A stretch of DNA of 61,658 bases. It comes from Basidiobolus ranarum (taxonomy: Eukaryota). Position 1 is the first letter of the stretch, and the number at the start of each line of letters is the position of its first letter. Location: the NCBI GenBank assembly GCA_040143965.1, contig JASJQH010006881.1, forward strand, positions 1 through 61,658, in the 5' to 3' direction. A model generated the notes under the pieces. That model made no database searches. It was not told the origin of the DNA and saw only the letters and a list, made by a program, of their open reading frames with translations. Of the stretch, positions 176 to 59,784 are shown in pieces. Made by a program: the position numbers and the translations under genes.

Positions 176-203
176 TAAACTACCTTCATGTCCAAATGGT
201 TGT

Positions 204-702: not shown

Positions 703-1009
703 AAGTAAATTCCTATTGAGAATGATGGATAATATCTTAGTGAAATTTAAGATAACCAAGTACTAAGCTATATATGACTATATAGGTGTTTAAGCAATGT
801 TAATTTCAATGCCAGGAACATGTGTGCAAAGTTTGGGGCTTCTAGCCAAAGTTTGAAAAATCTATATATCTGAGAACTTCTAAGTTGGTGTCAGTATTCT
901 AAGTAAATTCCAATTGATAATAATTGATAATATCTTACTGAATCATAAGATAACCAAGTACTAAGCTATATATGACTATATAGGTGCTCAGGCAATGCTA
1001 ATTTCAACA
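703..1009 (-). mobile_element. Two tandem copia LTR fragments (703-811, 835-1009)
   Basis: Direct repeats of 1-175 (AAGTAAATTCC...CTAAGCTATATATGACTATATAGGTG...ATTTCAA). Confidence 0.75.
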
Positions 1010-28000: not shown

Positions 28001-28789
28001 ACCTCTTTGTTCGGCAGAATTCTCCGATAAATCAAGTGTTTTTGCAGTGCTACTCTCTTCCCTCTGTAAATCGAGGCTCTCTTTTGCTTTATCACTCTTG
28101 GCTTTTTCAGAAGACTTGTCGTTAGCTTTATCCTTTGATTCTGACTTGGTAGTAGTTTTCCTGGGTGTGCGAGGCTTAGTCTCTCTGCTTTTTTTGTTAG
28201 ATTTAGCTGACGATTTTGATGAAGTTGTTTGACTATTATTAGTTTCGGTTGCATTCAGACTAATATTTATCAAGGAGCTAGTGAGATTCTCAACATCGTG
28301 TTCAATTACTTGGGTGGGTTTTTTATCTCCCTTTTGCTTTGAACGAGGTTTAGAAATATTTTTTTCCTTGGTGACTTGACCGGCTTCGTTTGTTTCTGTC
28401 GCAACATCCTCTGGTGGTATTTCAAGTACTTTGTTGTCCTTGTTTGGATTTATCTTTCTGGTTCGTTTCGGCTTGTTACTGCTCGATAAGCTGGATTGAG
28501 AGTTCAAAGTACTATAGTCAAACGGAACAGCATGGTGATCTTCATTGAAAGTGGTTTTGCTGGAGTTTAGTTCTTTCTTCGTAACACCTTTGGCCTTAGA
28601 AGGGGTTTTTTGGCTTTTCTTGGAAGGTCTACTAGTGGTCTCCTGACTGGAAATGACGCTCAACGTATCATAGTCTATGATCTCTAGTTCGGTAGAGTTA
28701 TTAGTTGGGAAGGGTGAAGGTGAGTCGGAAAATAACTTTCGGGAAGTTTTAGAACCTCGAGAAGAGGAGTCTCTGTTTGAAATATTCAT
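25008..28789 (-). CDS. DIS3L2: DIS3-like exonuclease 2 (RNase II/RNB family), 4 exons
   Basis: CSD motif GILRINKRNRSDAYV...RNRALNGD; RNB motifs FTIDPATAKDLDDA and YTHFTSPIRRYAD; no PIN domain. Confidence 0.88.
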
Positions 28790-29561
28790 TAACAGTTACT
28801 AAAGGAAAACGGACAATATCGAATATAAGCTAAAGAAACTAAAAAAATCACTGATAATTGGAAAATGTAGTATTATGAAAGTTACCAAGAATCGCTATTT
28901 ATGGATGTAAAATATCTTTCAAGTTCATTGGAATCACTACGCATATGCATTTGTATTTTCTAAATTCATCTGAGTTATGGTAATAGATTCGTTTTTGAAT
29001 GAACTAATTTGGTATACCGCAATTCCGTTTGGCTAAATTATGGGTATTTCCCCCCCCGTTAAAGTTAAACAAGTTAGAGTGCGATAATATTCTCTACTGC
29101 GTCATCAGTAAAACTAAATGGAAATCGCTCAAGCTTCCTCTTTGTTAGAATGAATATCGATACTTCACACGATTTTGACACTCTTTGAGAGAGAACACAG
29201 ATCGGATGGTTACGCAGCGGTAATCGGTTATCGATTACCGTGATTTATAGTCTTTCATGTAAGCGGGAGAAAACATGACCTATCGCGAAGAATATTGTAT
29301 ATTATTAAATAGTCACACACTGATTGGTAAAATAACAATAAGATGACTTTGAATTAAAAATATCCATAGATCCATTGCAGACAGCAACAAATTGTATATC
29401 AAGTATAATATCTAGATAAGCTGTCTTGAACGAAAACTGATTAGTTCCTTTAACCTGCACATAAAAGCTACTTCTTCCTTACTTGCTTTTCTTTTGTTAA
29501 ATTTACTTTAATCCTTCTGTATAACACTAATTCTTTTTGTCTAAATTTCTTCCCTTTTCTT

Positions 29562-30921: not shown

Positions 30922-33900
30922 CTACATCCCACAGCTTTCCCGTACCATTTCGATGAGTCGTTTGACACCAACCATCCAAGGTACTAAAGTATCAGACTTG
31001 GTAACCAGGTCTACATGGATCTTGTGCGCGGTATTGAAGTCACGCATTTCCAACGCTAGTAATGACAGTGTTAGAAAATCTACTTTCCGCATTGTATCTT
31101 GCCATGTTAGAACATACCTTGGGTTAATGCAAGCATTTGATCAATCACGTCCGAATTAAGTTTTTCATAATTCAAAGCATCAAATAGGTTGCCAAGTCGT
31201 TTTTCAACATCATCCACCTTCTTCTTTTGATTGGGCTTATGAATTAATAAACAAGATTAGAAATCACTTCTATTGTTGCGATTAGGTAGTATCATCACTT
31301 ACGGGTGAACTTTGCTTGATACGCTGCAACTCACTGTTAAGCATGGTGAAGATAGGCTTATGAGCTGCAGGTATTTTAGAGCGATCTCCAGGTGCTATTG
31401 AGGGGAATAATAGGTAATTTAGCTTGATGTTATTGTGAATCAAAATATGTTTTCTGATCGGTTGCTTACGATATTTTGGTTGGGGAGGAGCTTGTGGTGC
31501 AGGAGCAACATTGTTCTGAGGTGGATTGTATGAAGCTGCAGGCATAGACTGCTGGGGAGCAGCTCGGACGTTGGGTGCGACTGGTTCGTCATTGTTTGGC
31601 AATGATGCTGGTCGATAGGGCCTTCCTTGAGCATTATTCATGCCGTTGTACGCACTACCATAGCCAGGCCCAGGGTTAGGAATATTGGTGTTATACTGAG
31701 TAGCCCCGTACATTGGCTGTTGTTGATTCCTCGACTGATTATTATTGATAAACTGTTGAGCTTGAGGTTCAGATGTCTGATTCGCATACCCTGTACCTGG
31801 TTGTGAAGGTGGAGGAGGGAGAGTGCGACCGCCCATCGGAGGTGAAAAGGCAGGTTGACCAGGTGATGTGGCATTGGGGGCGGCGTTAGGGAATGGTGAG
31901 GTAATGGGGTTTACCTTAGGTGTTTGATTTCTCTTAGCAGTAGTTAAAGTTTCCAGAGGAGGGTCATTCCATGCAGGAATATTACGTTGTTGCGAAGGTG
32001 GAACCGAAGGTGACGCACCCCGAGTAGTTGGAGGTGGTTGAGTTGGATAAGCAGAGTTGAATGTGGGGGGAGCATTATAACCTGGGACATATGGCTGTTG
32101 TACCGGTTGCTGTTGATAACCACCATAAGCTCCGGGATTATAACCCGCGGAATTATTGTAGTTATCATACGGCATTGAGTTATTCATGGTATTTTGTACA
32201 GGTTGTGTAGCATATGCTGGTTGATATGTTTGAGCTTGAGCTTGAGGTTGATAATTAAATTGATTACCGTATGGAGCGTTCTGATTGTACATCTGTTGGT
32301 GAGGTTGTTGCGGTGGTTGGAATCCTGAATCACCTTGAGGGATTTGAGGAGCAGGAACAGTAGTATTGGCAGAAGGTACGTTAGTGGCAGTAGTAGTATT
32401 ACTAGCAACTGGTGCCTGTACTGGTTCTGGTTCAACAGGCTGAGTCTCAGTATATTGAGGATATTCACCTTCACCGCCGATGAATACAGGCTCGAAAGGA
32501 AATTGAGGGGCAGTCATATCAGTAACATCTACTCCTGAATGATATAGTCTTTCTCTGAGTATAGTATAAAACTCATTAAGACCATCACCTTTATCGATTA
32601 CATTGCTAGGCGTGCGATTTAGATATCTAACAGCAGTAGCCAACTCCCCTTGGGAGATCATAAGTTCCGCATACTCCAAGTATTTCTCATAAAGAGGAGA
32701 AAGATTTTGAGTATTACTCACATGATTCTGAGTATCATTAGCGTCACCCTCTGAATTGTTAGTCAACGATTCGACTTTCTCAACAGCCTTTCTGAAAACG
32801 GAGATTTTTTCAATAAAATCTTGTAACAAAGTAGCATGGCACGAGTATTCTGATCCAATTGATTCGCTGTCTTCACTGCTCGCTAGAGCTTTAATAGCGG
32901 TAGATTCGGTTTCTTTATATTGGGTAATCCAGATGTCAACAACTCGTTCGATATTTCCAGCTGCAAGATAACAAAGAATTGCTTGTTGTCTAAGTTCTCC
33001 GGATTTCTCATTGGAATCTTCATCTTTGGATACTCTGTGCCATTCAGCCTCGATTCTTTGACCCAACCTTTCACAAAGGCCAGGAAATTCTTCAGCACGC
33101 GAGTAAGTGCAAAGAATGACGAGAATCTCATTCCATTCACTCAGGTCAGCATTCTCAACGACATCGGTCAAGTCACCAGTAATAACACTTTGAAGAACAC
33201 GGATATATGGTGTAGTTTTGCTCATACGCACAAAATAAGCCTCCTGGGTACGTGATAGTAGTTCTGGCCCACCGCATACCGCAAGAATGAGAGCATCAGA
33301 CAATCTATCCTTGTCTAAACATATATTAACTGCGGATTCGAAGTCTCCTAGAGTAATAGCACGAGTGATAAGTTGGTCAATATCGGTATTTTCCTGAGGG
33401 TTGATTTTGAAAGGAGATCTAGGGATCACTTTCTTCTTGGTGGAGTCGGAAGCATTCGTGTCAGCGGACTGTGGTTCAGTCTGGTTCTTAAAAAAGTCAT
33501 TGCGAGCAACATTGTCATCATCACCAGAGAATGAGAACAATTCAGAAATACTTTCTTTACCATCGTCAGTGATGGCAGGTTCAGCTTGAGCATCTCCAGC
33601 TTCATCATTCTCAGAGCCTGAAGCTTTTTCCTCCGGTTTTTCAGTAGTTTCAGTAGGTTCAGTGTCGTCTTTGTTGGCAGAGACATTCAACTTGCCTAAT
33701 TTTTCTGCAACCTCAGAGATAAGCTCCGTTTTCTCAAATCCTAGATGCTTGACAAGTTGATCTCTGGCATCACTCTCGAATAGAATTCTCAAGATCTTCC
33801 AATTTTCTTGCTCGACATGATTTTTTGTTTGAGAGCGCTTATCACAAAATTCTTGAACAGTCTCGGATTCAAGAGCGCTCTCTAATTCTTTGGAGCGCTT

Positions 33901-35722
33901 GACAATTTCTGGTTCAGTAATAGCAGTTGCAATAGTCACTGTTTGTGTGGTAGTACTTTGTGCAGCTTGGCCGTTCCTGAACATAACAAGTTTTCCGCCA
34001 AATGCAAAAGTAGCGCCAACAGGTGGTCTAAGCCACTTCGGAGCTTGCTTTAAAGTGAACGATGGAGATACAGGAGCTGGCGTGCTCTGGGCAGCGAAGG
34101 GATCATCACTTTGCTGAGTCTCTAGAGCAGTATTTAATGACGTTGCTTCAGAAGCAGCAGATTGCAACGAAAAGATGTTAATCTAAACATAAAACTAAGT
34201 TAAGCCGGATGATGATGTAACATAGGCAGAATGAACTGTAAATACTTGGCCATCAAAGGAAGCAGTACTCAATAGATTAGGGTTTCTGGGACACCATTGA
34301 ACATCAAAGGTCCAATTTGAGCTTTGTGGTAACTAAAAATGATATTCTATAAGAATTTTCCAACAATGGAACAGAGATTCCTTCGAAATACGTTACCTCT
34401 CCAACAACTTCCCCGACTCTGGGATTCCAGCATAATGTTCTACAATCCTTTCCGGAACTTAATAAAAGGTCAGAATCCATTCTACACCATGATAGAGAGA
34501 GAATGCCTTTTGTATGACCAGATAGAATCTATAAAGAAATGTTAGAATTTGTGCAAGAAGGAAATGTGATATATAAGAGAGATACCTTTTCTGGTGCGTG
34601 TGCATTTCTTAAATCCCACATCATTATGATAGGGTTGCTATCGTCTTCAGATGCAGTAACGAGTTGAGTGGCCTATGAGGTAAGTTTTGTTAGCTGTGCA
34701 TAGAAAATGTATAAGATACAAAAGAACACTTACATTATCTGGATTCCACGCAACCGCGGTGATCCCTCTTCTTCCTCCACCGAATCCACCCATGTTTGGC
34801 ATAGATGTGCCAGGATAAGCTAAATGCATAACCTCTCGACGATTTTTCAGGTCCCACACAACCGTATATCCTGTTGTAGAGGAAGTAGCCAAAATGTGCT
34901 GAACCTGGTTATTCCACGATAAACAAGTAATATCATCTAGTCTTTGAGAACGTGGACCAGGTGAATAAGGTGTAGTAGGATTACTAAGATCCCAGATAAA
35001 AATCTGATGCAGATATTCATTTAGTACCATAACTCATAAATGAGTAAAACCAAATGATATTACCTCCCCATTACCGGCTGCAGAGGCCAAAAGGTTAGAT
35101 TGAAATGGATTAAACTCTAAGCCACTCACGGAACCAGAGTGGTTAGAGTTGCGTAGTAACAACGCTTTTTCTGGATCTCTATTGGTGTGAAAAGAATGTG
35201 TGAAAAGGAACTCTATCACTGCTCATGATAAACAATATTACTTACTTTGGACCTTCAATAAGGTCACCAGCATTCCACAGAACTAGCTCGCCACTTTCTA
35301 AACCTCCCGCAAGTATACCATGAGGTTTATCTTCGTTTATTCCACCCCAAGCGAGGCGATTGAACCTAATAAATTGAAGAATTGAGTATTTTCCTGAGAT
35401 ATTACTAGCATTGTGTTTTGCTAAGATATAACAAGTCACAGTATACTAAATAGCCACCAGCTGAGCTAGAATTACACCGTCAAAGAAGAAATACAAACTG
35501 AATACCAACATACCTGGCCTCGCTACTAATAGCAACCTCCGGTTTCCATTCATCAACTGTAGGAGATTTGTCATTGAGGTCCAATTTGAAAATCTCCAGT
35601 TCAGTTGTATTTGAAAAAGAAGCATCAAGGGCACCAGCCACGGTACCAGTTGCAATGTAAGTCTGGTTTTGATGTGGACTCCATGCAAGAGTTGATGTGC
35701 GTTTGATTTCTTTGAACTTCAT
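30922..35722 (-). CDS. SEC31: COPII outer coat protein Sec31, multi-exon
   Basis: [16 protein letters not shown]...[16 protein letters not shown]40 repeats; [20 protein letters not shown]; Pro-rich region with AWNDPP; C-terminal [11 protein letters not shown]. Confidence 0.95.
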
Positions 35723-37941: not shown

Positions 37942-40455
37942 TTAGGATATTTCTTTTCTTTCGGAGATCATTCTTCTGTGAGATGTGGATTTGGGCGAGC
38001 GACTGTTACCACTAACCATGCTAGTTCGGTTATAAAGTTGACTATCTTTGCCATCATTCTTCGAACGATGTACATGTGGATCGTCTAATCGCTTGCTGTC
38101 CTTGGGTGGTTTGGAAGGTTTATTCGTATGGCTATCTTCATGCGTGGAACGCGTCAATGAATCGTTCGAACACTGCTTTTGGTTTTTCTTCCTCATCTCT
38201 TTAGCTTCAAATTCATGCCAGTCACCCTCCAGCTTGGGAAAACTAAATTTCATAAGATTATGAGTTAAGGCTTCAATGCAATCAATCAGATAAACGATTC
38301 ACTCACTCTTTCAAGTCACAAGGATTTGGCTGTTCGGACGTGAAATATTTGTGTCGCAGAGCTTCGCCTGCTGATGGCCGCTTAGAGGGATCCATTGACA
38401 AGAGAGCTGTGGCCAAGTCATATGCCTCTGGTGATAAGGTGCTACATGAAAGAAAATAGATGAATATGGATTGAGAAGGGAAATACGTGTTCGTATGTAT
38501 ATGTATGGATGTAAATTACTCTCTGAAATCTTTTTCGAAACGCCTTTCTTTTGCTTCTTTTGGCTTAACAAGTCTATACCATGGTAGGCTAGTTATTGTT
38601 GGCCAACTCTCAGGGCTAGGGGTACCGAGTAGGTCGTATATCGATTGTAGCTGAGAAATTTCGTCTTTGCCTTGGAACAAAGGCTTTCGGAGAAAGAGTT
38701 CCATCATTATACATCTACCAATAAAGATGTTAGTCTTCCACCACCCCTTTCAATAGAAACAACTTATACGCACCCAACGCTCCACATATCAACCTCAGGG
38801 CCGTACTTAGTTCCGCCCAAGAGCAACTCAGGAGGCCTGTACCACAATGTAATGACTCGGTTGGTATATTGGTTGCTCTTGTGTTTCTCATAGACTCGCG
38901 CAAGCCCAAAATCAGCCAACTTCAATTGGCCACTTTTGTTTAGAAGCAAATTAGATGCTAGCAGAGATGAATTTAGGGTTAGAGGAATTAGTCAGAACTC
39001 TATATTCATGCATATATAGAATCACTCTACCCTTAAGATCTCGGTGTAATACTTCATTTTCATGAAGGTATTTGATACCACGCAAGATCTGAATCATCAA
39101 CCGTTTGATGTGGGCTGGGCTCAGTGATAGGCTAGGATGAGCAAGGAATCCCGTTAAATCGTAATCCATGTATTCAAAAACCATGTAGAGAGATCCTATG
39201 CCACACAAACCATCAGTTGCCAATTTAAACAAACAATACAGGCTCTCACAAACCTTTGTGATAAGCGATTTCCGGCAACTGGATAATATTCGGATGCTTC
39301 AGACTTTGGAGTAATTTGATCTCTCGGAGAGCTGTCAGCGGAAACTAACAAACAATTTTAATATTGCCATGAAATCATCAAAGGTAATCGCACCTACTTA
39401 CACCATCTTTTTCGGAATCGACCTTGATTCTTTTGAGAGCAACCACTGTGTTTGAAATAATATTCCTCGCCTTAAACACCTTGCTACCGATTCAAATTTC
39501 CAGGTTAATCCAGAATAGCATATAATGACCATGATCCTATAACTATAAATATTTACCCATAGGTTCCCTCGCCCACTTGCTCTAATTTCTCGTATAGGTC
39601 GATTTTGGTGTTACTTTTGGCGTCGCTTGTTTTTAGATTCTCTTTGCTTATGCCTTTGTTGTCACTTGCTTTGGGATACTCTCTACTTGTTTGGCGAATA
39701 CGATCTTTAGAAGGTACACTATTCGATGCTTGTTTATATTTTTCTACTCGTTCGGGTTGCTTCAGCTTTTTATATGAATGTTGAGAGGATAGAAAGGTTG
39801 ATTCTCTCTTTTTGTAATGGCGAGAACCTTCGTTATATTCAAGATAATCAGAGCTTTCTTGCTTTCTGGATATCGTACCGTTGCTGGCCCTTTGAGAGTA
39901 TTCTCTGGAAGTTTTCACGGTGTACTCTATGGATGTTTCAACTACTTTCTTGGTTGCTCTTTCTGTTGACCGATAATTAGTTCTCTCTTGTTTTTCTGAC
40001 TCTTCTAAACGACTACGGTTTCTTCTGGAGGAAGTACTATCTTTGCTAAGCTCACTTTGGTTCTCCTTCGATTCGTGACTTATTTTAGAGAGTGAATCTC
40101 TGCCCGAGTTGCTTTGAATAGGCTCAACTTTTGTGCGGCTGTTGGTACCAACATCGAGTTGCTTATTATTTTTAGGGGGTGAATAATGATCGCTACGAGA
40201 GACTTGAGGCTTCCGTTTAGATTGGACATCTCTGGATTGTCTAGAACGAGATCTAGACCTATAGTTACGATCCGGAGAGTAGTGAGAATTAGAACGGGCG
40301 GAATGATAAGAGCTTCCTTCTCGTTCACCTTTGCGAGAAGTGGTCCGATCTCTATCCACATCTCGATCACGTCTGCTACTACTATGTCTGGAGCTTAACT
40401 GTGGAGGAGATCTTGAACGGCTGTATCTATGTGAAGAACGGCGGTGGCTATCCAT
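37942..40455 (-). CDS. CTK1: CTD kinase Ctk1/Lsk1 (CDK12/13-like) with RS-rich N-terminus, multi-exon
   Basis: [68 protein letters not shown]. Confidence 0.85.
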
Positions 40456-41061
40456 TTTAGTACAAGTTCCAATTTTGAACGTACCAACCGTAAGAATAGT
40501 GAAAAAGAATGAGTAGAGGTGAGGTATAAACTGAAAAAGAAACCAAGTGAAAACAATGAAATGAAAAGATACAAGAGAAAATGCAAGTAAGCGAAAACCT
40601 ACTGCTTAGAAACAGCAAAAAATGCAACTACTTTCGTTGAGGAATAGTTAACTTTTTGCTCTCAAGAAAACCAGGTTTACATTCATTCATTGACTGCAGA
40701 AGCCAGGTAATTTCAATGCAAAATTTAAACTTTCTACATCGAAGTAATTGGGCTAAACTAGTCAAAATCGAATGACTTTTTTAAACAAAATACCTGAGAT
40801 CTGTCAATAAGTATAAATAGTGACGAAGGAAGGCATATTTCGATGCATATCTTGGTTAGTATATTTAACCGCATATTTACTTGAAACTCGGTGAAAATCT
40901 AGACTAATAACTTTAATCATACAAGATGCAATATATATATAGCAGAGATGCTATACTGTTATTTTCAGATGATTTTATTTTAAAATACATTTGGATACTT
41001 CAGGTTGATTAAATTTACAGGAGACAGATCATGTGTGAAGTAGGTGGCTATCAATAATGCT

Positions 41062-42345
41062 TCATTGTCCATTATTATCAAACCACCGCTGTTCTTTCAA
41101 ACGTTTAACCCAGTGCACTATCATACTCAAACGTTTACGAATTGAATGAGCCTCAAGAAGTCTATACTTCTCATATTCATTGATAGGGATTATGCTCGAT
41201 GCCCAGAAAGAGAAATCTGAAGGGTTGGAAGGCATACAACCATATGTGATATGGAATTTTTGGATAAGCCACGGAGCGCATCCCCCTTGGATAAAATTCA
41301 CAAATTCATGCGCGGATGTCATAAGTTCATTCAGAGAGGGCTGATTGAGTAATGAAGTGCTAGGACTTTCTTCTAGATCAGTATCATCGACACGTTCTAC
41401 TTTCCCAACGTAGTAACCATCCTGGTTTGAATGCTGGAGGACCCGAAACCGATGTAAGCCAATAGCCTTAACTAATGAACGACCATCAGGTAACGTTTCT
41501 ACAGAATGAATTCCTAACATTGTCCCATACGGCATAAACGGTTGACCATGACGACCTGGCAATACCATTCCAATTCTTTTCTGTTTAGTCCTCAGACATC
41601 TACGAATCATTAGGCGATGTTCCGGCTCAAAAATGTGAAGTTGAACCGGCATGTTGGGGAATACAAGCGAACTTATAAATAGAGGAGTGTCACCAATAAC
41701 GTCAGATTTATCTGTTACTCTCTTTAACTTTACCAAGTTAGGAAAACTTCCCTGTATTAGATTAGAAAGCAACCAGTTTTGAGAACCGTTTAAAAGGGTT
41801 AAACAATCTGGAAGCTGGTGGCGGCACACCGGACATCTGTTGTTGTAGTCAGCTGAGCGAAAGAGACAGTCCTTGCAGAAGGTATGTCCACATTGAGTTG
41901 TCAGAGGCTCTTCCAAAAGTGTGCAGCATACTTGACATTCGAGTTCACTTAATATATATTCGATGCTGGCTTTGTCAGATACAACATCCGATAAAATAGA
42001 ATCTGAACTAGAACAGTCAGACCAGTCTTGCTCGTCTAGAGTGTGCTTTAGCAGCAATGATGAGACTCTAATACATGCTTCTAAGGTTTTGGATATAGTG
42101 ACATCTGCATGTATTTCACTTAAGCTATGGACCCTTTGAGTGCATTGAACAAATGGGCAGGTGAAGCGAGCATGGCTCATATCAATCACACTTGGAAGAC
42201 AGTTGAGGCACAAAGTAAATCCGCATGAGAGAGTGACGGGATGTACTAACAGTTGTGAACATTGCGGGCATATGAAATACCTAAGGGTATTTTGAATATC
42301 TGGTTGATCAGTGGCAGTGTGAAAAAAATCGCAAGTACTTGCCAT
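41062..42345 (-). CDS. LON peptidase N-terminal domain and RING finger protein (LONRF-like)
   Basis: Two RING-type motifs (CPQC...CGFTLCLNC; CQVC...CGHTFCKDC...CPVCR), then the LON/PUA domain (LVFPNMPVQLHIFEP). ATG at 42345 preferred over the TTG at 42375. Confidence 0.9.
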   Translation of the reverse strand: MASTCDFFHTATDQPDIQNTLRYFICPQCSQLLVHPVTLSCGFTLCLNCLPSVIDMSHARFTCPFVQCTQRVHSLSEIHADVTISKTLEACIRVSSLLLKHTLDEQDWSDCSSSDSILSDVVSDKASIEYILSELECQVCCTLLEEPLTTQCGHTFCKDCLFRSADYNNRCPVCRHQLPDCLTLLNGSQNWLLSNLIQGSFPNLVKLKRVTDKSDVIGDTPLFISSLVFPNMPVQLHIFEPEHRLMIRRCLRTKQKRIGMVLPGRHGQPFMPYGTMLGIHSVETLPDGRSLVKAIGLHRFRVLQHSNQDGYYVGKVERVDDTDLEESPSTSLLNQPSLNELMTSAHEFVNFIQGGCAPWLIQKFHITYGCMPSNPSDFSFWASSIIPINEYEKYRLLEAHSIRKRLSMIVHWVKRLKEQRWFDNNGQ

Positions 42346-43153
42346 ACTTGATAGTACAGAATCGGTTTGAACCAAAGGGAGAATAGAGGAGCTAACCTTA
42401 GAGGTGGCTTTGACTAATAACTACAGTCACAGGAATACAGTGAATAAGAGATGAACGTTGGTTTCCCAAGAGAGGTCCATGCCTTTATATACCAAGTGTA
42501 TCCACATATTGGAGTAGGACGACCGATTTGCGCAATTGGCCATGTACACGCTATAAATGCTCAAAGGGGGAAGCGCACAGATCGAGTTTTTGCACGCAAA
42601 TACTACGATCCTATGAATATGAATTCTTTGATTGTTTGATCTCTATACAACTCCACGTAGGGAGACAAATCGATGATTCCAAACTAAAACCGAAAATATT
42701 TAAAATCCGCACGAACTTGAACCAAACATACTTCAGCAATTAGTGCCCCATGCATAGAATAAAATATGGAATTTCATTCACTTCAGAAGAATACTTGACG
42801 GCGATTTTCATTTGTGCGATAGTAACGGAGCTAATTTTGTTACTACATTGCTATTCATAATCTAGAGTCATATATATGTACAATACTGGTTTAACAAACA
42901 AAAAAATCACTACAACAAATTATCGACTGTAGGTATTAGACAGATGCGTTTTGCACTAGAACCCACTCTCTTGTCACTTACGACCCCCTCATCAACATAC
43001 CATTCAGAATTCCACTCGTTTCTACGTATTACATAATTATTACTGGTTTGATTTCATTTTAAAGCATTATTTTATTTCTTTCTGTACATTAGCATATATT
43101 TACCTAATAAAAGAATTGATATTAGTGATTGGGTCTAAAATGGGTTTGTGTTG

Positions 43154-49854: not shown

Positions 49855-52011
49855 TTAAAGGACTTTGACTGATTTAGGTCGTCCATGTTGCTCTTGCTCA
49901 AAGCGGAGAGACTGGCATACGTTATATACAAGACCATCGTCACGTACAAAAAGAAGCGGGAGTTCGAGGAACGGTCCATAATTGTGTTGGTAATTGGATC
50001 CAAATAGCTCTTCGTGTTTGGGAAGATGGGCAACCAGAACAGTTTCATGACCTTTCATAACGACAGAGCCGACTGATGGCCAAATGACACGAATATCAAG
50101 TGGACCATGATTACCGAGCCAAACTTCCAATGGCTGGTCATGAGCGTGGAAATGTCGTATAGTAAGCTCCAGAGTGTTTGTATTTGGCTTGTAAATAGGT
50201 GGACTACTTAAGGAGGGAAAAGGTGTAATGGGGCGAGTGGTGGGACCAAGGCTTTCTAGATAGTTATATTCAAACTTCGAGATACCCACTATAGTCCATG
50301 ATAGATAATCATCAACCTCTTCAATGAGGCCTGAGGCTTCCATGGAGTCAATTCCTTGTGTATTCAGTTTGGCTCGTTTGTAGGATAAAAATGGGTTAGA
50401 TGCTGTGGCGGTATCGTGTTGGTCACTGGGAGAACTAGATGCAGATAGATACATCATAACGCCAGAATCAGTGTCATCCAGCTTTTGCAAGGCTACCTTT
50501 TGCATTTGACTCACAGGTCCCGAGGCATTTTGTGCGATTCTTCCTTTTTCAACTTTCCGTATAATTAAAGGGTCCGAACAGAATCCTGTGGCGGTATCAG
50601 TCAAGATGATTTGAGAGCCATAAGTGACAGGTGAGTTGAGCAAAGGTCTGTTGGTATCACCAGATGTAGAGTTGACAAGGGTGATGGAAAATGCAGACCA
50701 AGTGGAGTTCTTCGCACAGAGCATACCAGAGTCAATGCCCATGTATTTAGTGCGTACAGTTTGAGAGTTGATACGGTTGAAGAGAGAAACGGTGGATCCA
50801 GAAAAGATGCAAGATGAGACGTTCCTTGTCTTTGAAGTTTTCTTCGAGGGTTTGGATATAATAGATATAGGCGAGGAGTCAAAAGTGGCGTGTGGAATAG
50901 GGTTCTTATTGTTAAAAACCTAGAAGCGCAACATCATTGTTAGAAATAAGCACCACCAATGTATAATTCAAAAATCCTTAAGTACCTTAAGTTTCAAAGC
51001 AAATTGTTTGGCTTTAGCGGTGCCGCTTACATGTAAATACTTAAAAGTACCGCCATTATTCTCATCTAGCATAGCCTTTTGTTCGAGTTGCCCTGGTCCA
51101 GAACCAGCTTCGCAAATGACTGACATACTAAGTTGAGGTTTCTCCGCAGAGCTAGAACCATGAACGGTAACAACCGGTGGTGGACATAAAAACCGCTTTT
51201 CAGTACCATATGACTTCTGAGCAACCGACGCATGCCAACATGTGATTCTGGTCATGTTAGACAGAAATGTACTTGGGTTGGAGCCATAGTTTTCAGTTAC
51301 AGGTAAAATTCTGTCCCCGATTTTCTTTTGAATTTTCATACGCTGATTCATATGTGTTTCTTCAAAGCTATAGGAGGCTTTACGCTTCCTATCCACTTGA
51401 GGGTCATTATAGTAGTTGTCGATAACGGGAGTAATAGGAGACATATTGTATTGGGGGTATGCTGAGATGTCCTGGCCATTGACGGAGTGAGGAGAATGAG
51501 TACCGTAATATGTGTGAGGTGGCTGAGATATAGAGGTGTTGGAAGACATCATTGAGGGGATTGATAAACTTCTTCTGGGAGAGAAATAGTCTACGATCGG
51601 TGTGGACGCTGCATCAACGATAGCGGATATCGACATTGTTGTTGAAGGAGAGCGTTCTGGAACAGTGCCTGGTATCTCACCATATTGATTAGTCCCACCG
51701 ACAGGAGAGGTTGAAATAAAAGGTTTGAACGGGTTGTTGTTTTCGCTCATGACCCGTGAGGGTTGTATGGGAATGGGTAGATGATGATCAATAGCAGAGA
51801 GCAAAGACTCCATACTGTTGCTTATAAACTGTGGAAATTTACGATCTTGATAAGCAGCCAATCCACTTGTTTGTACTATGTGAGGTTGCTGCGTAGATTG
51901 TGGGTAAATGGTAGACTTAGCAGTAGATTGAGTGCTAGGATAAGAGTAATGATATTGTGAGTCTAGCTGACGATTTTGAAGATGCCCGGTAGAGATGTTG
52001 GAGTGACTCAT
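49855..52011 (-). CDS. CSL (CBF1/Su(H)/LAG-1) transcription factor, fungal class F1 (Cbf11-like), 2 exons
   Basis: HASVAQKSYGTEKRFLCPPP, FKYLHV, IISKPSKK, LFNRINSQTVRTKY, VSQMQKVAL, WTIVG. Intron 50920-50985. Low-complexity N-terminus. Confidence 0.93.
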
Positions 52012-52564
52012 AGTTTGTACAATGATTTACAGAAGATATGATAACATTCACTACACCAGGCTAGGATGAGTAAGAATAGGAGATAATCAAGGGCTTGGTC
52101 AATGCCAAATTACTGATTGTTGACACAAGAGAGAAGAGATGGACTTTGCTGTTCTCCCCACCCCGACCATGCTTTTATACTTTGGGACAGTCAATCGATC
52201 ATCATGTTTGATTGGATCACCAAGACTTCATATAAGAAACACATTAAGATGGCGCGTGTGTGTTTCTTGACCGCAGTGTATTAAAGTTAGTTGCTTGAGA
52301 AAGATGAATGGATAAAGACAGATGATCAAGTGGTTCCAGGATTGGCGTGGGATGAAACGGAAGCGACACAAGAAACTAGAAATCACCTCGTCGTTGTCGG
52401 CATTCCTATATCTGTCTATATCTGCCTATATCTACCCATATTTGGCATGCTGGACAAGTTGCTCAGGAGGGAGAGTATTCAAGGGTTCGTAGAGGTGGTT
52501 GATTAGATTTATGAAGGGAGATCTGAGGCCAGATCTGATATACCTAGCTAGCCGAAATGGACAC

Positions 52565-54379: not shown

Positions 54380-55619
54380 TTATTTGCATTCTTGGATCTC
54401 ACCCGTTCTATGATAGAATGTCGAGGCCCTGATAAAAGGCTGTAACTCATGACCAGCTTCTCTTAATTGTTGAGCTGCATTCTGTCTTTCTTGATCCAAA
54501 GTGACCGGATCTTTTATCCACTTTTCTGTGACCCGAACAAATGCCTTCACGGTTTCCCAGAAATGTTGATGTGCTTTTTGCTTCTCTTGGGATGAGACAG
54601 TGGATTCAAGCTCCTCTAGTGTAGGTGGAACATAGCGATATTCGTATGGATCTTTTCCCCCAAAAGACTCTAGTAATTGCTCGGGATCTATATGATTGCA
54701 TAACTCTTTTCGTTTACAAAAGATAATCTTCGATTGGATAACTGGGTCAAGTAATGGGGATATCATCTTCCAGAAGCCTAGATATGAACAATAGATTGGT
54801 ATATAAATCATGGTGTTGACTCTCATTATTTTGCTGACCTGAAAATACCCACGGAGCATCTACTATGTACAAGTTGCCTAAACACTCCGGATAATATGCC
54901 TCCATACAACCGACCAAAAAGTTGGCCGCGGAGAAATCCTTTTAAGTATAATCCTTAATATACGTATCTTTACTTGGATTACAAAGAGAATCAACCACTT
55001 TACCACTTTGCTCATATTAAATCCACTAGTATCTATAATGGCGGATACTTTGCCGTCCTTATCGTCGTCAAGTAAGAGTCTGCCGGTTTCCACTGTCCAA
55101 ATAACATACTGCTTAAGCTCAAGCAAGGTTTGAGCCTTTGGATGCCAGTGATGCACATACGCTATGCTAAAAAAAGAGTTAGCAAAAGTAAATCCGTTGT
55201 TATACAAAAGTTACTCGCCATAGAGGACGTCCGTAAGGATCTCGACCATGAAAATGGGTCAAACCATCTTGTAGTAATTTCTGGTTTAACGTAGTTTCCC
55301 CTTTTTCTATAATACTCTCCACATCTTCGTCTAGCCGCCAATCTAACGCGTTCATAAACATTTCACATGACTTTTGTACGTCAAACTTACGTGCACGTAA
55401 GAACCTTAGTAAAATGTTGTCAGGGTGATCAAATAGGATGATTTTCCAGAAGGCTTTCTCTACACCCCCTAGACCAGAGTCGTCTTTTGGGAAACTTTCG
55501 TTGCGTGGGTGGTCTCGAATTTTTGGAAGTACTTCCGACCACATTAAGCGTAGGCTTTTTAACTCAGTATCGGATAATTTTGAGTGCATTGCTCCTTTCC
55601 CTGACTCTTTGCTAGACAT
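54380..55619 (-). CDS. CRAL-TRIO/Sec14-family lipid transfer protein (Csr1-like), 4 exons
   Basis: DHPDNILLRFLRARKFDVQKS...WR, GRDPYGRP, IIDTSGF, EAYYPECLG, FWKMISPLLDP...SKIIF, FGGKDPYEYRY. Confidence 0.92.
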
Positions 55620-56172
55620 AATGTATCGTTTGGGCTTTCACAGAATTTAGAAGTCTACTTTGGATTCAAAGGCAAGAGTATGTACTATTGTAAATTTATT
55701 TAGCTAACTCCTTTGAACTTCCGATCGCTCAATGATGTCCTATTTTAGCTTCAAGTATTTATTTACACGTTTCCATATCACTATAATGGAATATATATAT
55801 TTCTGAGCAATTCTCTCTACGTGGATTTCTCTCAGTTGACACGAATACTCGTATATCATTGGATGAAACCAGATCAGTTGACTAAAGATGATTAATGCCA
55901 AGATCTGGTTGGCTCTGTATTTATATATTAGAAATACTTTACAGACAACTGACATAAGATTCAAGAGATAGATGTGCTTTGTCACATCAGCCCAATGAGT
56001 ATTGTATTAATATAGAGGGAATTGGTTTTTTAACGATTACTGTTCTTTTGAGGTTGCTGCATTACTGTATTATATCTATAATATACATTCAGAGTTTCAT
56101 ATTCATTGTTGCAGAGTGAGGTCATGCATTATGCTCTACACCTCGTTTATATATTGATAATAGTGGAGGAAT

Positions 56173-58213
56173 CTACAGGCTGTTTGGATATGAAAGTGGT
56201 TTGGAAAGAGGATAACACACTCTGGTACGCTTGGAGAATCTAATGTATCGTTTTTGATACAACCCTTGGGCCATTGGGGGTACCAGGTGATTCCAGGCGG
56301 TATAGTCACTATGAGTTTCAAGTCGATACCTTGTGAGGAGATTGGCCAATGTACTCTGAACAAGCATGAAGACCAACCTAAAAGAGTAGTGGGATCAGTA
56401 CATATGGATATGAATATTCTGTGCTTAAACCATACCTCTGACTAGTGTAATGAGCAAATTCAGTAGAGCTCAGATATATGGGCTCCGGGAGATTTTCTTC
56501 TACAGGATCTCTTTCTTCACCAGGCAAAATAAATGGATGGTTTATTACCTTGAAAGGGATTCGCAGTTCAGTATTTCTCGGGAGCAAACACTTTCCTAAT
56601 TGAAATGGCTCGTGTCCGGTATATCTAAGGAGATCGTTAAATGTTGAGCAATCCATACTTTTCTGGATGACTTGTTGAAACTGCTTCATAGGTTTGAGAT
56701 GTTTGAAGGTCAATAAATGATGCTTGTACTTCTCCTCAAATGTCACTCTCATTTTCCCTCGATCTTCAACATCCATCTTCTGATATTCACTATCGATTAT
56801 CTGAGAAATTCTCGCTTCAATCTGCTCCAAGGTTGACGTATCATTGAGGATATTCTCAAAGGCAGAGCTCAGGCATGTGAACAGGGTTTCCTCAATGTTG
56901 AGACTGATTTGTTTGAGTAAAAGATTAGATATAATTTTGATGCTGTCAAAGAACTGAATGTCTTCTTACATCAATGTTAGAATTTCCTCAGTTATTCTCT
57001 CTTCACTTTGCTTGTGTAGCAGATCCTTAGTTCTTTCCAAGCGAAAGTTAATGATACTTCCCAATTGGATTTGATGATCATCCGATTCCGCATCCTCAAT
57101 CAGCGCCAGAATTTTCTATGAATAAATATCAGCCATATTGGATATTCTATTTAGCCATGATGTTGATGCGTACCCGCTTCAGTTCTTCATCACATGTACG
57201 GGATGTTGTTCGAAGTGGCGAAAAGGGAATCCAAGTAAGGATCGGATATCGATGTGCCTAACAGTGACGTAAATCCAATGCAAAGCGAAGGCTTGTAGCG
57301 TAGCAAACAAATCTTACCATATTTTTCCACTTTCTACTTTCGTAAATCAGATTGACGACACATTCGTGTCGATATTTGGTCAGCTTTTTAGAGTCCAAGC
57401 CAAGAACGACAGTGGCGATAATGTCAGATACCAACTTGCTAATAATTTTCCTCTTTTCAAAAACCATCCCCGGTCTGATCAGCGTATCTTTTACGGTGTG
57501 ATCATCTGATGTGTTAAAGAGCCTATCGATTACCGCTATAACTCTAGGCTCAATCAGAAGTGAGTCTCTCTCATCAACGACATGACTTGGCTCTGCCTAT
57601 TGAAACATGCTTAGAACAGGAGCTTATTTCAGATCTACCAATGACTTACCAAGCTTGCGTATGGACTGTCACAATGCATAATTCAACTTTAGTCAGGAGA
57701 AAAGATATTCGTACGATTATCAATCACTTACCTATACCCGCGCCTTCCAACCTCTAAATTGCTGTTCTTCAGGATTTGCATAATCAATTCTGGATCAGCC
57801 ACTGAAATTTTACTTAGTCCTACAATGAAGTAAATCTTAGGAAGCAGTCACAGAAGCAAACTAAGCTACGTTATTAGGACATCATCCCATACCTATCCTG
57901 ACGACTGGTCCGAACTTTACGTGTAATTGATCATAGTGCATCTTACTGTGCAAAATCCATTTGGAGAACCACAATCTCACCTCCAACTTTATTAATTCAT
58001 ACCATTTTGGACTTGGTATTGTTCGCAAGGGATCTGTAAGAATCCTTCGTAACTAAAGAGAAGATGGATGTGAATAAACATTCAAAGTTAATCCAGTTTT
58101 GAGCTAGCCATTACCAAGCAAAATCCTCTCCATAGAAATAGGATTACACCAAATGTGGTTACTAAAGCAACGAGAGATTGGCTCAAGTCAGACCACTTTG
58201 AGCCGTTGTCCAT
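56173..58213 (-). CDS. Cytochrome P450-fold protein lacking the heme-ligating Cys (non-canonical P450 or pseudoenzyme), 9 exons, 514 aa
   Basis: Exons 58213-58115, 58052-57893, 57819-57732, 57665-57650, 57596-57318, 57257-57174, 57115-56970, 56903-56436, 56377-56173 splice in frame (1545 nt, all GT-AG). N-terminal TM anchor, DPLRTIPSP, LHVKFGPVVRIG, ISVADPELIMQIL, LVSDIIATVVLG, LGKCLLPRNTEL. Confidence 0.85.
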
Positions 58214-58947
58214 AGTTACCGATTGTTTAAAGTTAAAACCAGAGAGAAGGTATTCCAAGAATGTGAATAAAACTCAGCATTCATTCATTCATTTATTTTC
58301 CTATCCATTCCCTTTGCAATCTCTCATATCTTAAATGCCCCTTACTATCCAACATGGCAATTTAACCGTCACTTCAATCCATATATTCTCATTTCGATGG
58401 TCATTTTCATTCAGGAATGGATCATAGCCATGCACCCCTGGCTGAAATTCAATCTAAAAGGATGATTAAGCAAGATTCAACCCTACTACCCTACTACCAC
58501 TGAGGTGATTAGGTAAGATTCAATTGAAAAAAGATTCAGAAATTGAATATAGTAAGAATGACGACTAGTGGTCATCGGAGATCGATTAGTAAAACGTCAC
58601 TAATCATCTCGGTATTTCCTCAATAAATGAACACTCGCCACTGTTACTAATTCGGATTCAACATCCAGCAGCGAAGATAAAAAAGAACAAGTGCATCGGA
58701 GATAGTTCATATATGAATATTCAGGTCGGGGATAAAATGATTTCCGCCAGCTTCGGGACATAGCTCTGCCTACTCTCCTCCATAAGGGAATAAATAGAGC
58801 TGGATAATTGGTGTCGATAATACCGATTCGATTCACCCAATTTGACAGTTCTAGATGATTTTTTATGAACCATTATCCCGAGCCGAAAGCAAACTTCGCA
58901 TAAATAGAGTGCACAGTATACCGTTATTGCTGTATTGTTCGTTTGAA

Positions 58948-59784
58948 ATGGCTCAAGAAAGTGATATACTCGGCTACCCTGGCTACTGGGGAAGCGCTAC
59001 ATCTTCGGTGGATTGGTGTGAAACGAATTATGAGTATAGCTACTATGTAGCAGAGATGTTCAACAGTTTCTCTTCTTTGGCGATGGTGGTTATTGGCGAG
59101 CTTGGTGCATATCTACATCCACAATCCGAGTTTCGGTATCGTTTCGCCTTCCGTTTGATCTCTGTTGTGGGATGGGGAAGTTTACTATTCCATGGCACCC
59201 TCAAGTACGAAACACAAATGCTCGACGAGGTACCGATGTGTTGGGCAGCGGCTATGCTTTTCTACTGCCTGATCCGAAATAAATACCCGAACATCGGTGC
59301 GTGGTTTCCAATCCTCTTGGGAGCCTACACAGCCATAGTCACTGCTATTGTTTCTTTAAATTCAGGGAAGGTCCAGTTCTATCTATTTCATTTTACTTTC
59401 GCAAGTTTAGAATTGGCCGATATATTGTTCATGTTCCATATTTACCGTACTAAGCGACAAGAATCAGCAACCATTAAGTGGCTTTTCGAATCGGGACTAG
59501 GAATGTATGTGTCGGCAATGCTGATCTGGTTCACTGATTTCAATTTTTGTAAGTATTTAAACAGTCACGTCGCCCAAGCCTTAGGAAACATCACCGTAGT
59601 GGCGTTTAACCCACAATTTCATGCGGTTTGGCATGTCATGGTTTCAGCTGGACTCTATTGCTTGTGTCTACTTATCCTAGTGGATCGACAGGAAACGTTG
59701 GGATATAGAACTAAACTTCAGTATCTGTTCCATTTTATACCATATGTCTGTTGGGAGGATTTCCCTAACCCTAAAGCCTATTAG
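58948..59784 (+). CDS. Alkaline ceramidase (ACER3/Ypc1/Ydc1 family), intronless
   Basis: GYWGSATSSVDWCETNY...AEMFNSFS, GSLLFHGTLKYETQMLDEVPM, HAVWH; 7-TM CREST motifs. Confidence 0.95.
   Translation: MAQESDILGYPGYWGSATSSVDWCETNYEYSYYVAEMFNSFSSLAMVVIGELGAYLHPQSEFRYRFAFRLISVVGWGSLLFHGTLKYETQMLDEVPMCWAAAMLFYCLIRNKYPNIGAWFPILLGAYTAIVTAIVSLNSGKVQFYLFHFTFASLELADILFMFHIYRTKRQESATIKWLFESGLGMYVSAMLIWFTDFNFCKYLNSHVAQALGNITVVAFNPQFHAVWHVMVSAGLYCLCLLILVDRQETLGYRTKLQYLFHFIPYVCWEDFPNPKAY

What the first reader, a model, noticed from the sequence alone, without database searches (positions are those of the whole stretch)
56173..58213. Intact full-length P450-fold gene with the heme-thiolate Cys apparently replaced by Tyr and the core catalytic motifs lost
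Seen: nine exons with canonical GT-AG junctions give an open 514-aa frame with no stops. It has a classic fungal P450 start (TM anchor, DPLRTIPSP, LHVKFGPVVRIG-LSKISVADPE) and recognisable I, J/K, beta and L segments in the right order. Known: P450s need (A/G)GxxT in helix I, ExxR in helix K, PERF and FxxGxRxCxG. Here helix I reads LILNIEETLF, helix K reads QVIQKSMD, PERF is absent, and the heme loop reads YLSSTEFAHYTSQRL. Anchored on QRL...LANLLTRY, the Cys position is Tyr (codon 56447-56449) with His next to it. Inference: the preserved frame and introns despite such divergence suggest selection for a new role, either a Tyr/His-ligated heme protein or a heme-free, membrane-anchored lipid-binding pseudoenzyme. 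This is the best candidate for undescribed biology in the window.
Basis: partly seen in the sequence, partly recalled or inferred. Interest (0 to 1): 0.88.

Follow-up and report, generated by a model that had tools for sequence, protein, structure and literature searches.

The report
Cysteine-less P450-like fungal gene
This intact fungal gene encodes a membrane-anchored protein that descends from cytochrome P450 enzymes but has lost almost every residue needed to hold and use heme, so it is most likely a non-catalytic relative kept for another, still unknown, job.

Summary
Nine GT-AG exons on the minus strand (58213-56173) give a 514-aa frame. It is letter-for-letter the annotated Basidiobolus ranarum protein KAK9729378.1.

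Pfam's P450 model does not detect it, even at E<=10. It is nevertheless a P450 homologue:
- Profile-profile comparison with ten real P450s gives 98.9% probability, E 3.5e-17, over 406 collinear columns. Shuffled controls fail.
- All 30 language-model neighbours are P450s, and the independent ESMFold model superposes on a P450 at TM 0.65.

Two alignment methods put Tyr443 in the heme-thiolate Cys column. The C-helix H..R motif, AG..T, ExxR, the PERF arginine and the FxxGxR loop are also gone. Only 10 of 38 conserved P450 columns survive.

A full-length paralogue in the same genome (47% identical) keeps the Tyr but not the neighbouring His. Neutral drift to that divergence would give about 20 stop codons, so both copies look selected.

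Best reading: a heme-free, ER-anchored P450-fold pseudoenzyme. A Tyr-ligated heme is unlikely. Cys-less P450 homologues are already known (EryCII/DesVIII, CYP5619D), so this is a new variant, not a new kind. Expression, orthologues and function are untested.

The parts
56173..58213 (-). Whole gene: 9 exons, 8 GT-AG introns of 53-73 nt, 514-aa product identical to KAK9729378.1 (K7432_000343)
58115..58213 (-). Exon 1 (res 1-33). It contains the hydrophobic N-terminal anchor, res 10-32 (58186-58118).
   Evidence: Kyte-Doolittle 19-residue means reach 1.9 at res 10-34. The AF2 model has a helix at 4-38.
57893..58052 (-). Exon 2. It carries the Pro-rich hinge DPLRTIPSP (58034-58008) and the start of HVKFGPVVRIG. 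This is the part most like real P450s.
   Evidence: 11 hits at E 3e-5 to 8e-4 match only res 13-112, except P0009, whose best stretch is 21-226. 6 of these 11 carry PF00067.
57732..57819 (-). Exon 3
57650..57665 (-). Exon 4, a 16-nt micro-exon encoding (S)PYASL. It lies between an ...acag acceptor and a gtaagt donor and is needed to keep the frame.
   Evidence: The paralogue has a matching hexapeptide with S116, S120 and L121 identical. No read evidence.
57318..57596 (-). Exon 5. The P450 C-helix H..R motif has no counterpart here or in exon 4; it is a gap in both alignments.
57174..57257 (-). Exon 6
56970..57115 (-). Exon 7
56436..56903 (-). Exon 8: helix I to the former heme loop
56882..56899 (-). 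Helix-I remnant NIEETL (res 293-298), in the place of A-G-x-(D/E)-T-T
56732..56794 (-). Family-specific 21-residue insertion (res 328-348, ...RGKMRVTFEE). It has no counterpart in the P450s compared and lies in the block best conserved between the two paralogues.
   Evidence: There is a gap in all P450 rows of A4 and in hhalign. The block at res 321-360 is 60% identical, the highest of 13 blocks.
56651..56662 (-). Helix-K remnant KSMD (res 372-375), in the place of ExxR
   Evidence: hhalign shifts it by one residue (S..C); ExxR is lost either way.
56447..56449 (-). Tyr443 codon (TAC) in the column of the heme-thiolate Cys
   Evidence: It is conserved as Tyr461 in the paralogue.
56450..56452 (-). 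His442 codon. It is Asn in the paralogue.
56173..56377 (-). Exon 9: helix L (LANLLTRYRL, 56349-56320) and the C-terminal sheet, ending in the TAG stop at 56175-56173

Best explanation
The locus is a real, intact gene of Basidiobolus ranarum. It encodes an ER-type, N-terminally anchored protein with the cytochrome P450 fold, derived from a fungal microsomal P450.

It cannot be a heme-thiolate monooxygenase. The axial Cys is Tyr, the rest of the FxxGxRxCxG loop is unrecognisable, the C-helix H..R motif is deleted, and the ExxR/PERF triad that holds the heme core together is gone. I therefore infer that it carries no heme and works as a pseudoenzyme, that is, a P450-shaped binding or scaffolding protein at the membrane. 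It has been kept by selection in two diverged copies.

The blocks the two copies share best are the candidate working surfaces: a family-specific 21-residue insertion between helices J and K (...RGKxRVTFEEK...), helix I, and the start of helix L (TEFxxYTSQ[RK]LVF).

Shown here: the gene model, P450 homology, loss of the motifs, and existence and conservation of the paralogue. Inferred: absence of heme, non-catalytic role, ER location, and selection. The ligand or partner is unknown.
For: Gene model:
- The rebuilt model is identical to the annotated protein.

Homology to P450s:
- hhalign of the two paralogues against 10 PF00067 proteins gives Prob 98.9%, E 3.5e-17, over 406 collinear columns, res 28-489.
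- A local rerun gives score 158. The best of 20 column-shuffled controls scores 23.1, and the reversed control 12.8.
- Residues 121-514 alone still give 96.6%, E 5.4e-10.
- 30 of 30 ESM-Atlas feature neighbours are PF00067 clusters (score 0.97, 177 of 256 features shared). The Atlas's own ESMFold model aligns to a P450 model at TM 0.65 over 421 residues.
- An AF2 model built from a 16-sequence alignment (pLDDT 69, pTM 0.67) finds at least 500 PDB chains at E<=0.001. Every row listed (ranks 1-50) is a P450, at E 2.6e-9 to 8.4e-8 and TM 0.42-0.58.

Loss of function:
- Of 38 columns conserved in at least 10 of 11 full-length P450s, the protein keeps 10 and the paralogue 11.
- The lost columns include H..R (gap), A, G, T of helix I, E and R of ExxR, the R of PERF, the P-F-S-x-G positions and the following R of the heme loop, C to Y, and G.
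- No CxG lies anywhere near the heme-loop position on the gene's strand in any frame.

Selection:
- The paralogue K7432_004617 (P0014, 518 aa) is 47% identical from Met1 to the C-terminus.
- In substitution-only neutral simulations reaching 45-58% identity, the two copies carry 15-21 stops on average, and 0 of 100 runs are stop-free.
- Identity between the copies is clustered: 10 of 2000 shuffles reach the observed variance.
- The annotated frame has the best codon score.

Precedent:
- EryCII/DesVIII are P450 homologues without the Cys and without heme that act as protein partners (PMC3391682, passages).
Against: - No expression or splicing data could be obtained.
- No orthologue outside this one genome was found. 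In the exhaustive search of 1.84 billion representatives, only 2 of 13 hits are full-length, and both are from B. ranarum. Two metagenome scans found nothing.
- The gene predictor could in principle have stepped over stop codons with introns, although all introns here are canonical and of typical length.
- The Tyr and its surroundings are conserved between the copies. This is also what a Tyr-ligated cofactor site would show.
- P0001 keeps an E-T pair at the acid-alcohol position of helix I.
- The AF2 and Foldseek result is partly circular, because real P450s were in the input alignment. AF2 on the two paralogues alone failed (pLDDT 32).
- Pfam PF00067 does not match at E<=10.
- Absence of heme is inferred from motifs, not measured.
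Confidence: 0.55

Rival explanations
1. It is a Tyr-ligated (catalase-like) heme protein in a P450 fold. Tyr443 replaces Cys as the proximal ligand and the protein does new redox or heme-sensing chemistry.
For: - Tyr443 falls exactly in the Cys column by hhalign and by MAFFT and is conserved in the paralogue.
- It sits inside a conserved block, TEFxxYTSQ[RK]LVF.
- A basic residue (R447/K465) follows four residues on.
- P0001 keeps E296-T297 in helix I.
Against: - All other heme-holding features are gone: the C-helix H..R is deleted, the loop R is A or F depending on the alignment, and ExxR and the PERF arginine are lost.
- His442 is Asn in the paralogue.
- In the AF2 model, helix L runs 437-463, so Tyr443 lies inside the helix. 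In P450s the Cys sits on a loop just before it (plus established P450 structure). The model has only moderate confidence there.
- One full-text search for tyrosine ligation in P450s listed no natural Tyr-ligated P450 among its 12 rows. That search is not exhaustive.
Confidence: 0.07
2. It is a decaying relic, a P450 paralogue that lost function and is drifting. It is annotated as a gene only because its frame happens still to be open.
For: - Only 10 of 38 conserved P450 columns are kept.
- Pfam does not match.
- No orthologue was found outside the species.
- The codon score of 0.06 lies at the low end of the range for neighbouring genes, 0.02-0.47.
- There is no expression evidence.
Against: - Two copies 47% identical are both open over about 515 codons. 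0 of 100 neutral simulations at comparable divergence are stop-free, and the mean is about 20 stops.
- Conservation is patchy rather than uniform.
- The start codon, the MDN start, the anchor, the hinge and the micro-exon peptide are shared.
- All 8 introns keep canonical signals.
- The paralogue's locus carries two annotated products. This hints, by inference only, that transcripts were used in annotation.
Confidence: 0.15
3. It is still an enzyme but not a heme enzyme. The P450 fold has been re-used for cofactor-free or differently cofactored chemistry, for example acid-base catalysis on a lipid by the conserved acidic residues of helix I.
For: - Helix I is among the best conserved parts. 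The block at res 281-320 is 57% identical, and E296 is invariant in both copies.
- The pocket-lining elements of the fold are retained in the models.
- Both neighbouring genes handle lipids, an alkaline ceramidase and a Sec14-like protein. This may be chance.
Against: - No catalytic motif of any other family was detected. All Pfam hits on the whole protein are below their cut-offs, with E>=0.011.
- No precedent for this was seen in the papers searched.
- Only two sequences are available to define conserved residues.
Confidence: 0.13

Closest known systems
Microsomal (class II) fungal cytochromes P450, PF00067. The nearest found are Gonapodya prolifera KXS20118.1 (P0013) and Gonapodya sp. KAJ3344295.1 (P0009).
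   Same: It shares the N-terminal membrane anchor, the Pro-rich hinge (PLR.IP.P), the (Y/F)GP.VR.G strand, the collinear order of helices I, J, K and L, and the LANLL.RY.(L/F)E end of helix L. It is about 17-18% identical over the whole length, and the predicted fold is the same.
   Different: There is no Cys ligand (Tyr instead), no FxxGxR, no ExxR, no PERF arginine, no AG..T and no C-helix H..R. It has a 21-residue insertion after helix J. Pfam's model does not match at E<=10.
DesVIII/EryCII family of actinomycete glycosyltransferase auxiliary proteins, which are P450 homologues without heme (PMC3391682)
   Same: Both are P450-fold proteins that lack the heme-ligating Cys yet are kept as functional genes. 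In EryCII helices I, J, K, K' and L are conserved while other parts are lost (passages). Here too, helices I to L are recognisable while the B'-C region is deleted.
   Different: EryCII/DesVIII are bacterial and soluble, and they are encoded with their partner glycosyltransferase in antibiotic clusters. This protein is fungal and membrane-anchored. No glycosyltransferase appeared among the 26 of 38 long ORFs of the window that were scanned. A profile of the two paralogues matches no PDB sequence at E<=10, and I take that set to include EryCII, since describes its crystal structure. It is an independent loss, not the same family.
P450 domains with degenerate CXG motifs in dioxygenase-P450 fusions (oomycete CYP5619, fungal CYP6000 series; PMC5919972)
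   Same: These are eukaryotic P450-family sequences in which the heme-binding motif is degenerate. Six CYP5619D members lack the Cys altogether (passages).
   Different: Those are C-terminal domains fused to a heme peroxidase/dioxygenase, and they retain ExxR. This protein is stand-alone, has no such domain, and has lost ExxR as well.

Membership tests
Cytochrome P450 (PF00067, heme-thiolate monooxygenases) | Match to the family HMM above the gathering score | tested here: not met
   PF00067 is not listed at E<=10 for the whole protein or for any of 6 exon/ORF pieces. The paralogue also has no hit at E<=0.01.
Cytochrome P450 (PF00067, heme-thiolate monooxygenases) | Common descent and fold: collinear profile similarity and the P450 fold | tested here: met
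   hhalign gives 98.9%, E 3.5e-17, over 406 columns, and shuffled and reversed controls fail. ESM Atlas returns 30 of 30 P450 neighbours and TM 0.65. Foldseek against PDB lists only P450s.
Cytochrome P450 (PF00067, heme-thiolate monooxygenases) | Axial Cys within FxxGxRxCxG | tested here: not met
   Tyr443 is in the Cys column by hhalign and MAFFT. The F, G, R and G positions are not kept. No CxG lies near that position in any frame of the strand.
Cytochrome P450 (PF00067, heme-thiolate monooxygenases) | ExxR in helix K and the PERF arginine (the E-R-R triad) | tested here: not met
   The E column is K372 and the R column is D375. The PERF R column is E439. hhalign gives S/C instead, so the motif is also lost there.
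Cytochrome P450 (PF00067, heme-thiolate monooxygenases) | Helix I (A/G)Gx(D/E)T(T/S) | tested here: not met
   The sequence is N-I-E-E-T-L. Only the E-T pair fits, and the paralogue has N-T-G-E-N-L.
Cytochrome P450 (PF00067, heme-thiolate monooxygenases) | Heme bound, with a 450-nm CO-difference peak | not testable with these tools
   This needs purified protein.
Microsomal class II P450 topology | N-terminal hydrophobic anchor followed by a basic stretch and a Pro-rich hinge | tested here: met
   Res 10-32 are hydrophobic, followed by RRILTDPLRTIPSP. P41, L42 and P46 are in conserved P450 columns.
DesVIII/EryCII auxiliary P450 homologues | P450 homologue lacking the Cys ligand | tested here: met
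DesVIII/EryCII auxiliary P450 homologues | Specific sequence relationship to EryCII/DesVIII | tested here: not met
   A profile of the two paralogues finds no PDB chain at E<=10, and the single sequence finds none either. That EryCII's solved structure is in that PDB set is taken, not checked directly.
DesVIII/EryCII auxiliary P450 homologues | Encoded beside its partner glycosyltransferase | tested here: not met
   The neighbours are a Sec14-like protein and an alkaline ceramidase. No glycosyltransferase family appeared among the 26 of 38 ORFs of at least 120 aa that were scanned.
Dioxygenase-P450 fusions with degenerate CXG (CYP5619 / CYP6000 series) | N-terminal heme peroxidase/dioxygenase domain fused to the P450 domain | tested here: not met
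   The 514-aa protein has no such Pfam domain. Its N-terminus is a membrane anchor.

The most novel reading that the evidence does not exclude
The conserved Tyr443 (Tyr461 in the paralogue) at the exact Cys position is a tyrosinate ligand to heme or another metal centre. That would make this the first natural Tyr-ligated P450-fold protein, with catalase-like rather than monooxygenase chemistry at the ER membrane.
Probability: 0.07. Interest if true: 0.85.

Novelty: new variant of a known kind. Interest (0 to 1): 0.45.

Why it matters
P450s are defined by their heme-thiolate chemistry. Natural members that abandon it show what else the fold can do.

The characterised heme-less case read here is the bacterial, soluble EryCII/DesVIII family, which are partners of glycosyltransferases. 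A eukaryotic, membrane-anchored, stand-alone version would extend pseudo-P450s to fungal ER biology. This one is kept in two diverged copies and has its own conserved insertion. It would offer a tractable case of how an enzyme fold is recycled as a binding or scaffolding module.

It also matters for annotation. Pfam misses the protein, while UniRef names it 'Cytochrome P450'. Neither label tells a reader that it cannot be a working P450, so it would be miscounted in CYPome surveys.

The weight of all this is limited. The family is so far seen in one genome only, without expression data.

Tried and rejected
- Pfam on six exon or ORF pieces and on the whole protein gave no P450 hit and only sub-threshold noise (Peptidase_C50, HAD_2 and others).
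- phmmer and hmmsearch against PDB sequences gave nothing useful. The one hit had E 1.9.
- AF2 on the two-paralogue alignment gave pLDDT 32 and was unusable.
So there was no paralogue DNA, no dN/dS and no read-based check of splicing.
- The search for homologous proteins with exon 8 ('longer') and with the paralogue alignment returned only the query itself. It did not return even the known paralogue cluster, so its silence about orthologues is weak evidence.
- A metagenome scan with the alignment found 132 pattern matches, none confirmed. A scan with a degenerate pattern for the conserved insertion found 0 matches.
- ESM Atlas restricted to unnamed clusters gave best scores of 0.87-0.88, below the level worth following.
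- An off-frame string F*VGLHAC at 56383-56360 looked like a heme loop. I rejected it because it contains a stop, runs only about 15 more codons, and overlaps the nucleotides that encode helix L in the frame conserved with the paralogue.
- I asked whether the Sec14-like neighbour might be a heme-binding Sfh5 type (lead from the listing). Its only PDB match at E<=0.001 is yeast Csr1, E 1.3e-8, so I dropped the idea.
- An automated exhaustive splice-path search gave thousands of open paths and was uninformative. The model was instead built by reading the junctions.
- Earlier findings of this scan: three look-ups, nothing held.
- Literature: no paper on this gene or on Cys-less P450s in Basidiobolus appeared in the searches. 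The Conidiobolus CYPome paper (PMC6032100, passages) reports EXXR and CXG present in all its non-fragment P450s and does not treat Basidiobolus P450s. Supplementary tables of the papers cited were not available and might list further Cys-less fungal P450s.
Full report
**What is there**

Reading the minus strand from 58213 to 56173 and joining nine exons at canonical GT..AG junctions gives a 1545-nt CDS of 514 codons plus TAG. The introns are 53-73 nt long. One exon is a 16-nt micro-exon (57665-57650), flanked by an ...acag acceptor and a gtaagt donor. Without it the frame breaks.

The translation is identical to a database protein, P0001 = NCBI KAK9729378.1, 'hypothetical protein K7432_000343 [Basidiobolus ranarum]'. 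UniRef labels it 'Cytochrome P450'. The Tyr codon is at 56449-56447, as stated.

The annotated frame beats both shifted frames on codon usage trained on eight other long ORFs of the window. It scores 0.06 against -0.42 and -0.38, and it wins in each of four quarters. The introns score like non-coding sequence.

**Is it a P450?**

Ordinary sequence tools say no:
- Pfam PF00067 does not appear even at E<=10 for the whole protein or for any of six pieces.
- PDB sequences give nothing.

An exhaustive phmmer search over 1.84 billion representatives found 13 proteins at E<=1e-3:
- the protein itself;
- one full-length relative, P0002, at E 4.8e-96;
- eleven weak hits (E 3.4e-5 to 8.2e-4) whose best stretches lie within residues 13-112, except P0009, whose best stretch is 21-226.

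Of the 12 non-self hits, 6 carry PF00067. The other 6 are P0002 and five short fragments. So the N-terminal quarter is recognisably P450.

For the rest I compared profiles. The two paralogues against ten PF00067 proteins gives hhalign probability 98.9%, E 3.5e-17, over 406 collinear columns, residues 28-489. Re-run locally the score is 158. Twenty column-shuffled controls reach at most 23.1, and the reversed alignment scores 12.8. Residues 121-514 alone still give 96.6%, E 5.4e-10, in the right order.

Independent support comes from the ESM Atlas:
- All 30 nearest clusters by language-model features are PF00067 clusters (score 0.97, 177 of 256 features shared).
- Its own single-sequence model (pTM 0.63) superposes on a P450 model at TM 0.65 over 421 residues.

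AF2 on the two paralogues alone failed (pLDDT 32). With real P450s added to the alignment it gave pLDDT 69 and pTM 0.67. Foldseek then found at least 500 PDB chains, and every listed row (ranks 1-50) is a P450. This last result is partly circular, and I give it less weight.

Conclusion: it is a P450 homologue with the P450 fold.

**What has been lost**

hhalign and MAFFT independently place Tyr443 in the column of the heme-thiolate Cys. They differ in where they put the gaps upstream of it. Under either alignment, none of the F, G, R or trailing G positions of FxxGxRxCxG keeps its residue.

I counted columns conserved in at least 10 of the 11 full-length P450s of alignment A4. The protein keeps 10 of 38 and the paralogue 11 of 38.

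Columns kept:
- the hinge P-L..P;
- G81 and R85 of the first strand;
- two Asp;
- R384, P399 and A458.

Columns lost:
- the C-helix H...R pair, a gap in both alignments;
- A, G and T of helix I;
- E and R of ExxR, now K and D;
- the R of PERF, now E;
- the heme loop.

By established knowledge of P450 structure, these are the residues that ligate the iron, bind the propionates and lock the heme core. One nuance: E296-T297 occupy the acid-alcohol positions of helix I, but the paralogue has E-N there.

A scan of all three frames of the gene's strand found no CxG near the heme-loop position. The only two CxG are upstream of the start codon and inside intron 5. An off-frame F*VGLHAC at 56383-56360 contains a stop and overlaps the helix-L codons, so it is chance. 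An alternative splice form restoring the motif is therefore excluded at this locus.

**Is it maintained?**

The one full-length relative is a paralogue in the same genome, K7432_004617. It is annotated with two products, P0014 (518 aa) and an N-terminally shorter P0002 (411 aa). P0014 aligns with P0001 from Met1 to near the C-terminus at 47% identity. Shared features are:
- the MDN start;
- the anchor and hinge;
- the micro-exon peptide (3 of 6 residues);
- Tyr443 within TEFxxYTSQ[RK]LVF;
- a 21-residue insertion (res 328-348) that no compared P450 has.

That insertion lies in the most conserved of 13 blocks, at 60% identity. His442 is Asn in the paralogue.

I simulated substitution-only neutral drift of the CDS in two lineages. 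At 45-58% identity the two copies carry 15-21 stops on average, and 0 of 100 runs at each of seven divergence levels are stop-free. Identity is also clustered along the sequence: 10 of 2000 shuffles reach the observed variance.

I infer purifying selection on both copies. The caveats are:
- only one pair is available;
- no nucleotide comparison was possible, because no genome is held;
- there are no reads;
- no orthologue was seen in any other organism. Two of those searches were shown to be insensitive, since they failed to return the known paralogue.

**Surroundings**

The gene sits among ordinary nuclear genes: cyclin, an eIF2A-domain WD40 protein, DNA polymerase epsilon, a Dis3L2-like RNase, a subtilase and a CSL-type factor. 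There is no P450 paralogue and no glycosyltransferase among the 26 of 38 long ORFs scanned.

Its immediate neighbours both handle lipids:
- An alkaline ceramidase lies divergently upstream (58855-59784, +).
- A Sec14-like CRAL/TRIO protein lies downstream (55637-54380, -). Its only PDB match at E<=0.001 is yeast Csr1.

This may be coincidence.

**How it most likely works**

The shown facts are a P450 fold, a membrane anchor, loss of every heme-holding motif, and two conserved copies. The best-supported reading is a heme-free P450-fold pseudoenzyme at the ER membrane that binds something, either a partner protein or a hydrophobic ligand, rather than oxidising it (confidence about 0.55). The conserved insertion, helix I and the start of helix L are the candidate working surfaces.

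The rivals are:
- a Tyr-ligated heme protein (0.07);
- a heme-independent enzyme (0.13);
- a drifting relic (0.15).

**Comparison with what is known**

It works most like the EryCII/DesVIII auxiliary proteins of actinomycetes. These are P450 homologues that lack the Cys and the heme and act by binding a glycosyltransferase (PMC3391682, passages). It is not a member of that family. There is no specific sequence similarity and no adjacent glycosyltransferase, and it has a different topology and kingdom.

Eukaryotic P450-family sequences without the Cys have also been noted in dioxygenase-P450 fusions (CYP5619D; PMC5919972, passages). Those are fused domains that keep ExxR.

It fails four of the sequence features that define a working P450 and should not be filed as one. 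It is a P450-derived protein.

**Novelty and verdict**

I found nothing in print on this gene. Nothing on membrane-anchored, stand-alone Cys-less P450 homologues in fungi turned up in the searches. Supplementary tables were not available to me.

I rate it a new variant of a known kind. It is moderately interesting as a candidate eukaryotic pseudo-P450, and useful as an annotation caution. It rests on one genome, with no expression data and no functional clue. The bold version, a natural tyrosinate-ligated P450 fold, is not excluded but is unlikely.

Noticed in passing
window 54380-55637 (-) and 58855-59784 (+): Both immediate neighbours of the P450-like gene are lipid-handling genes. Downstream is a Sec14-like CRAL/TRIO protein whose only PDB match at E<=0.001 is yeast Csr1 (E 1.3e-8). 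Divergently upstream is an alkaline ceramidase (Pfam E 1.3e-52). This could be chance or a loose functional neighbourhood.
   Followed up: partly
window 56360-56383 (-), off-frame: In a shifted frame the intron-8/exon-9 boundary reads F*VGLHAC, a look-alike of the P450 heme loop. It contains a stop and overlaps the helix-L codons, so I judged it a chance match.
   Followed up: yes
paralogue K7432_004617 (P0014 and P0002; not in the window): The paralogue's locus has two annotated products. One is full-length (518 aa). The other (411 aa) starts inside the region matching exon 3 and lacks the membrane anchor and first strands. This hints at a soluble isoform and at transcript-based annotation.
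   Followed up: partly
window 168-719 (+): An ORF fragment matches Transposase_21 (tnp2 family, E 4.2e-12) at the start of the window.
   Followed up: no
window 49855-52026 (-): Two adjacent ORFs carry LAG1-DNAbind, BTD and TIG domains. This is a CSL (Su(H)/CBF1/LAG-1)-type transcription factor gene in this early-diverging fungus.
   Followed up: no
window 31282-34182 (-), 27779-28795 (-), 39553-40605 (-): Three long open frames (966, 338 and 350 aa) have no Pfam family at E<=0.001.
   Followed up: no
window 41062-42420 (-): An ORF combines two RING fingers with a LON substrate-binding domain, a LONRF-like architecture.
   Followed up: no
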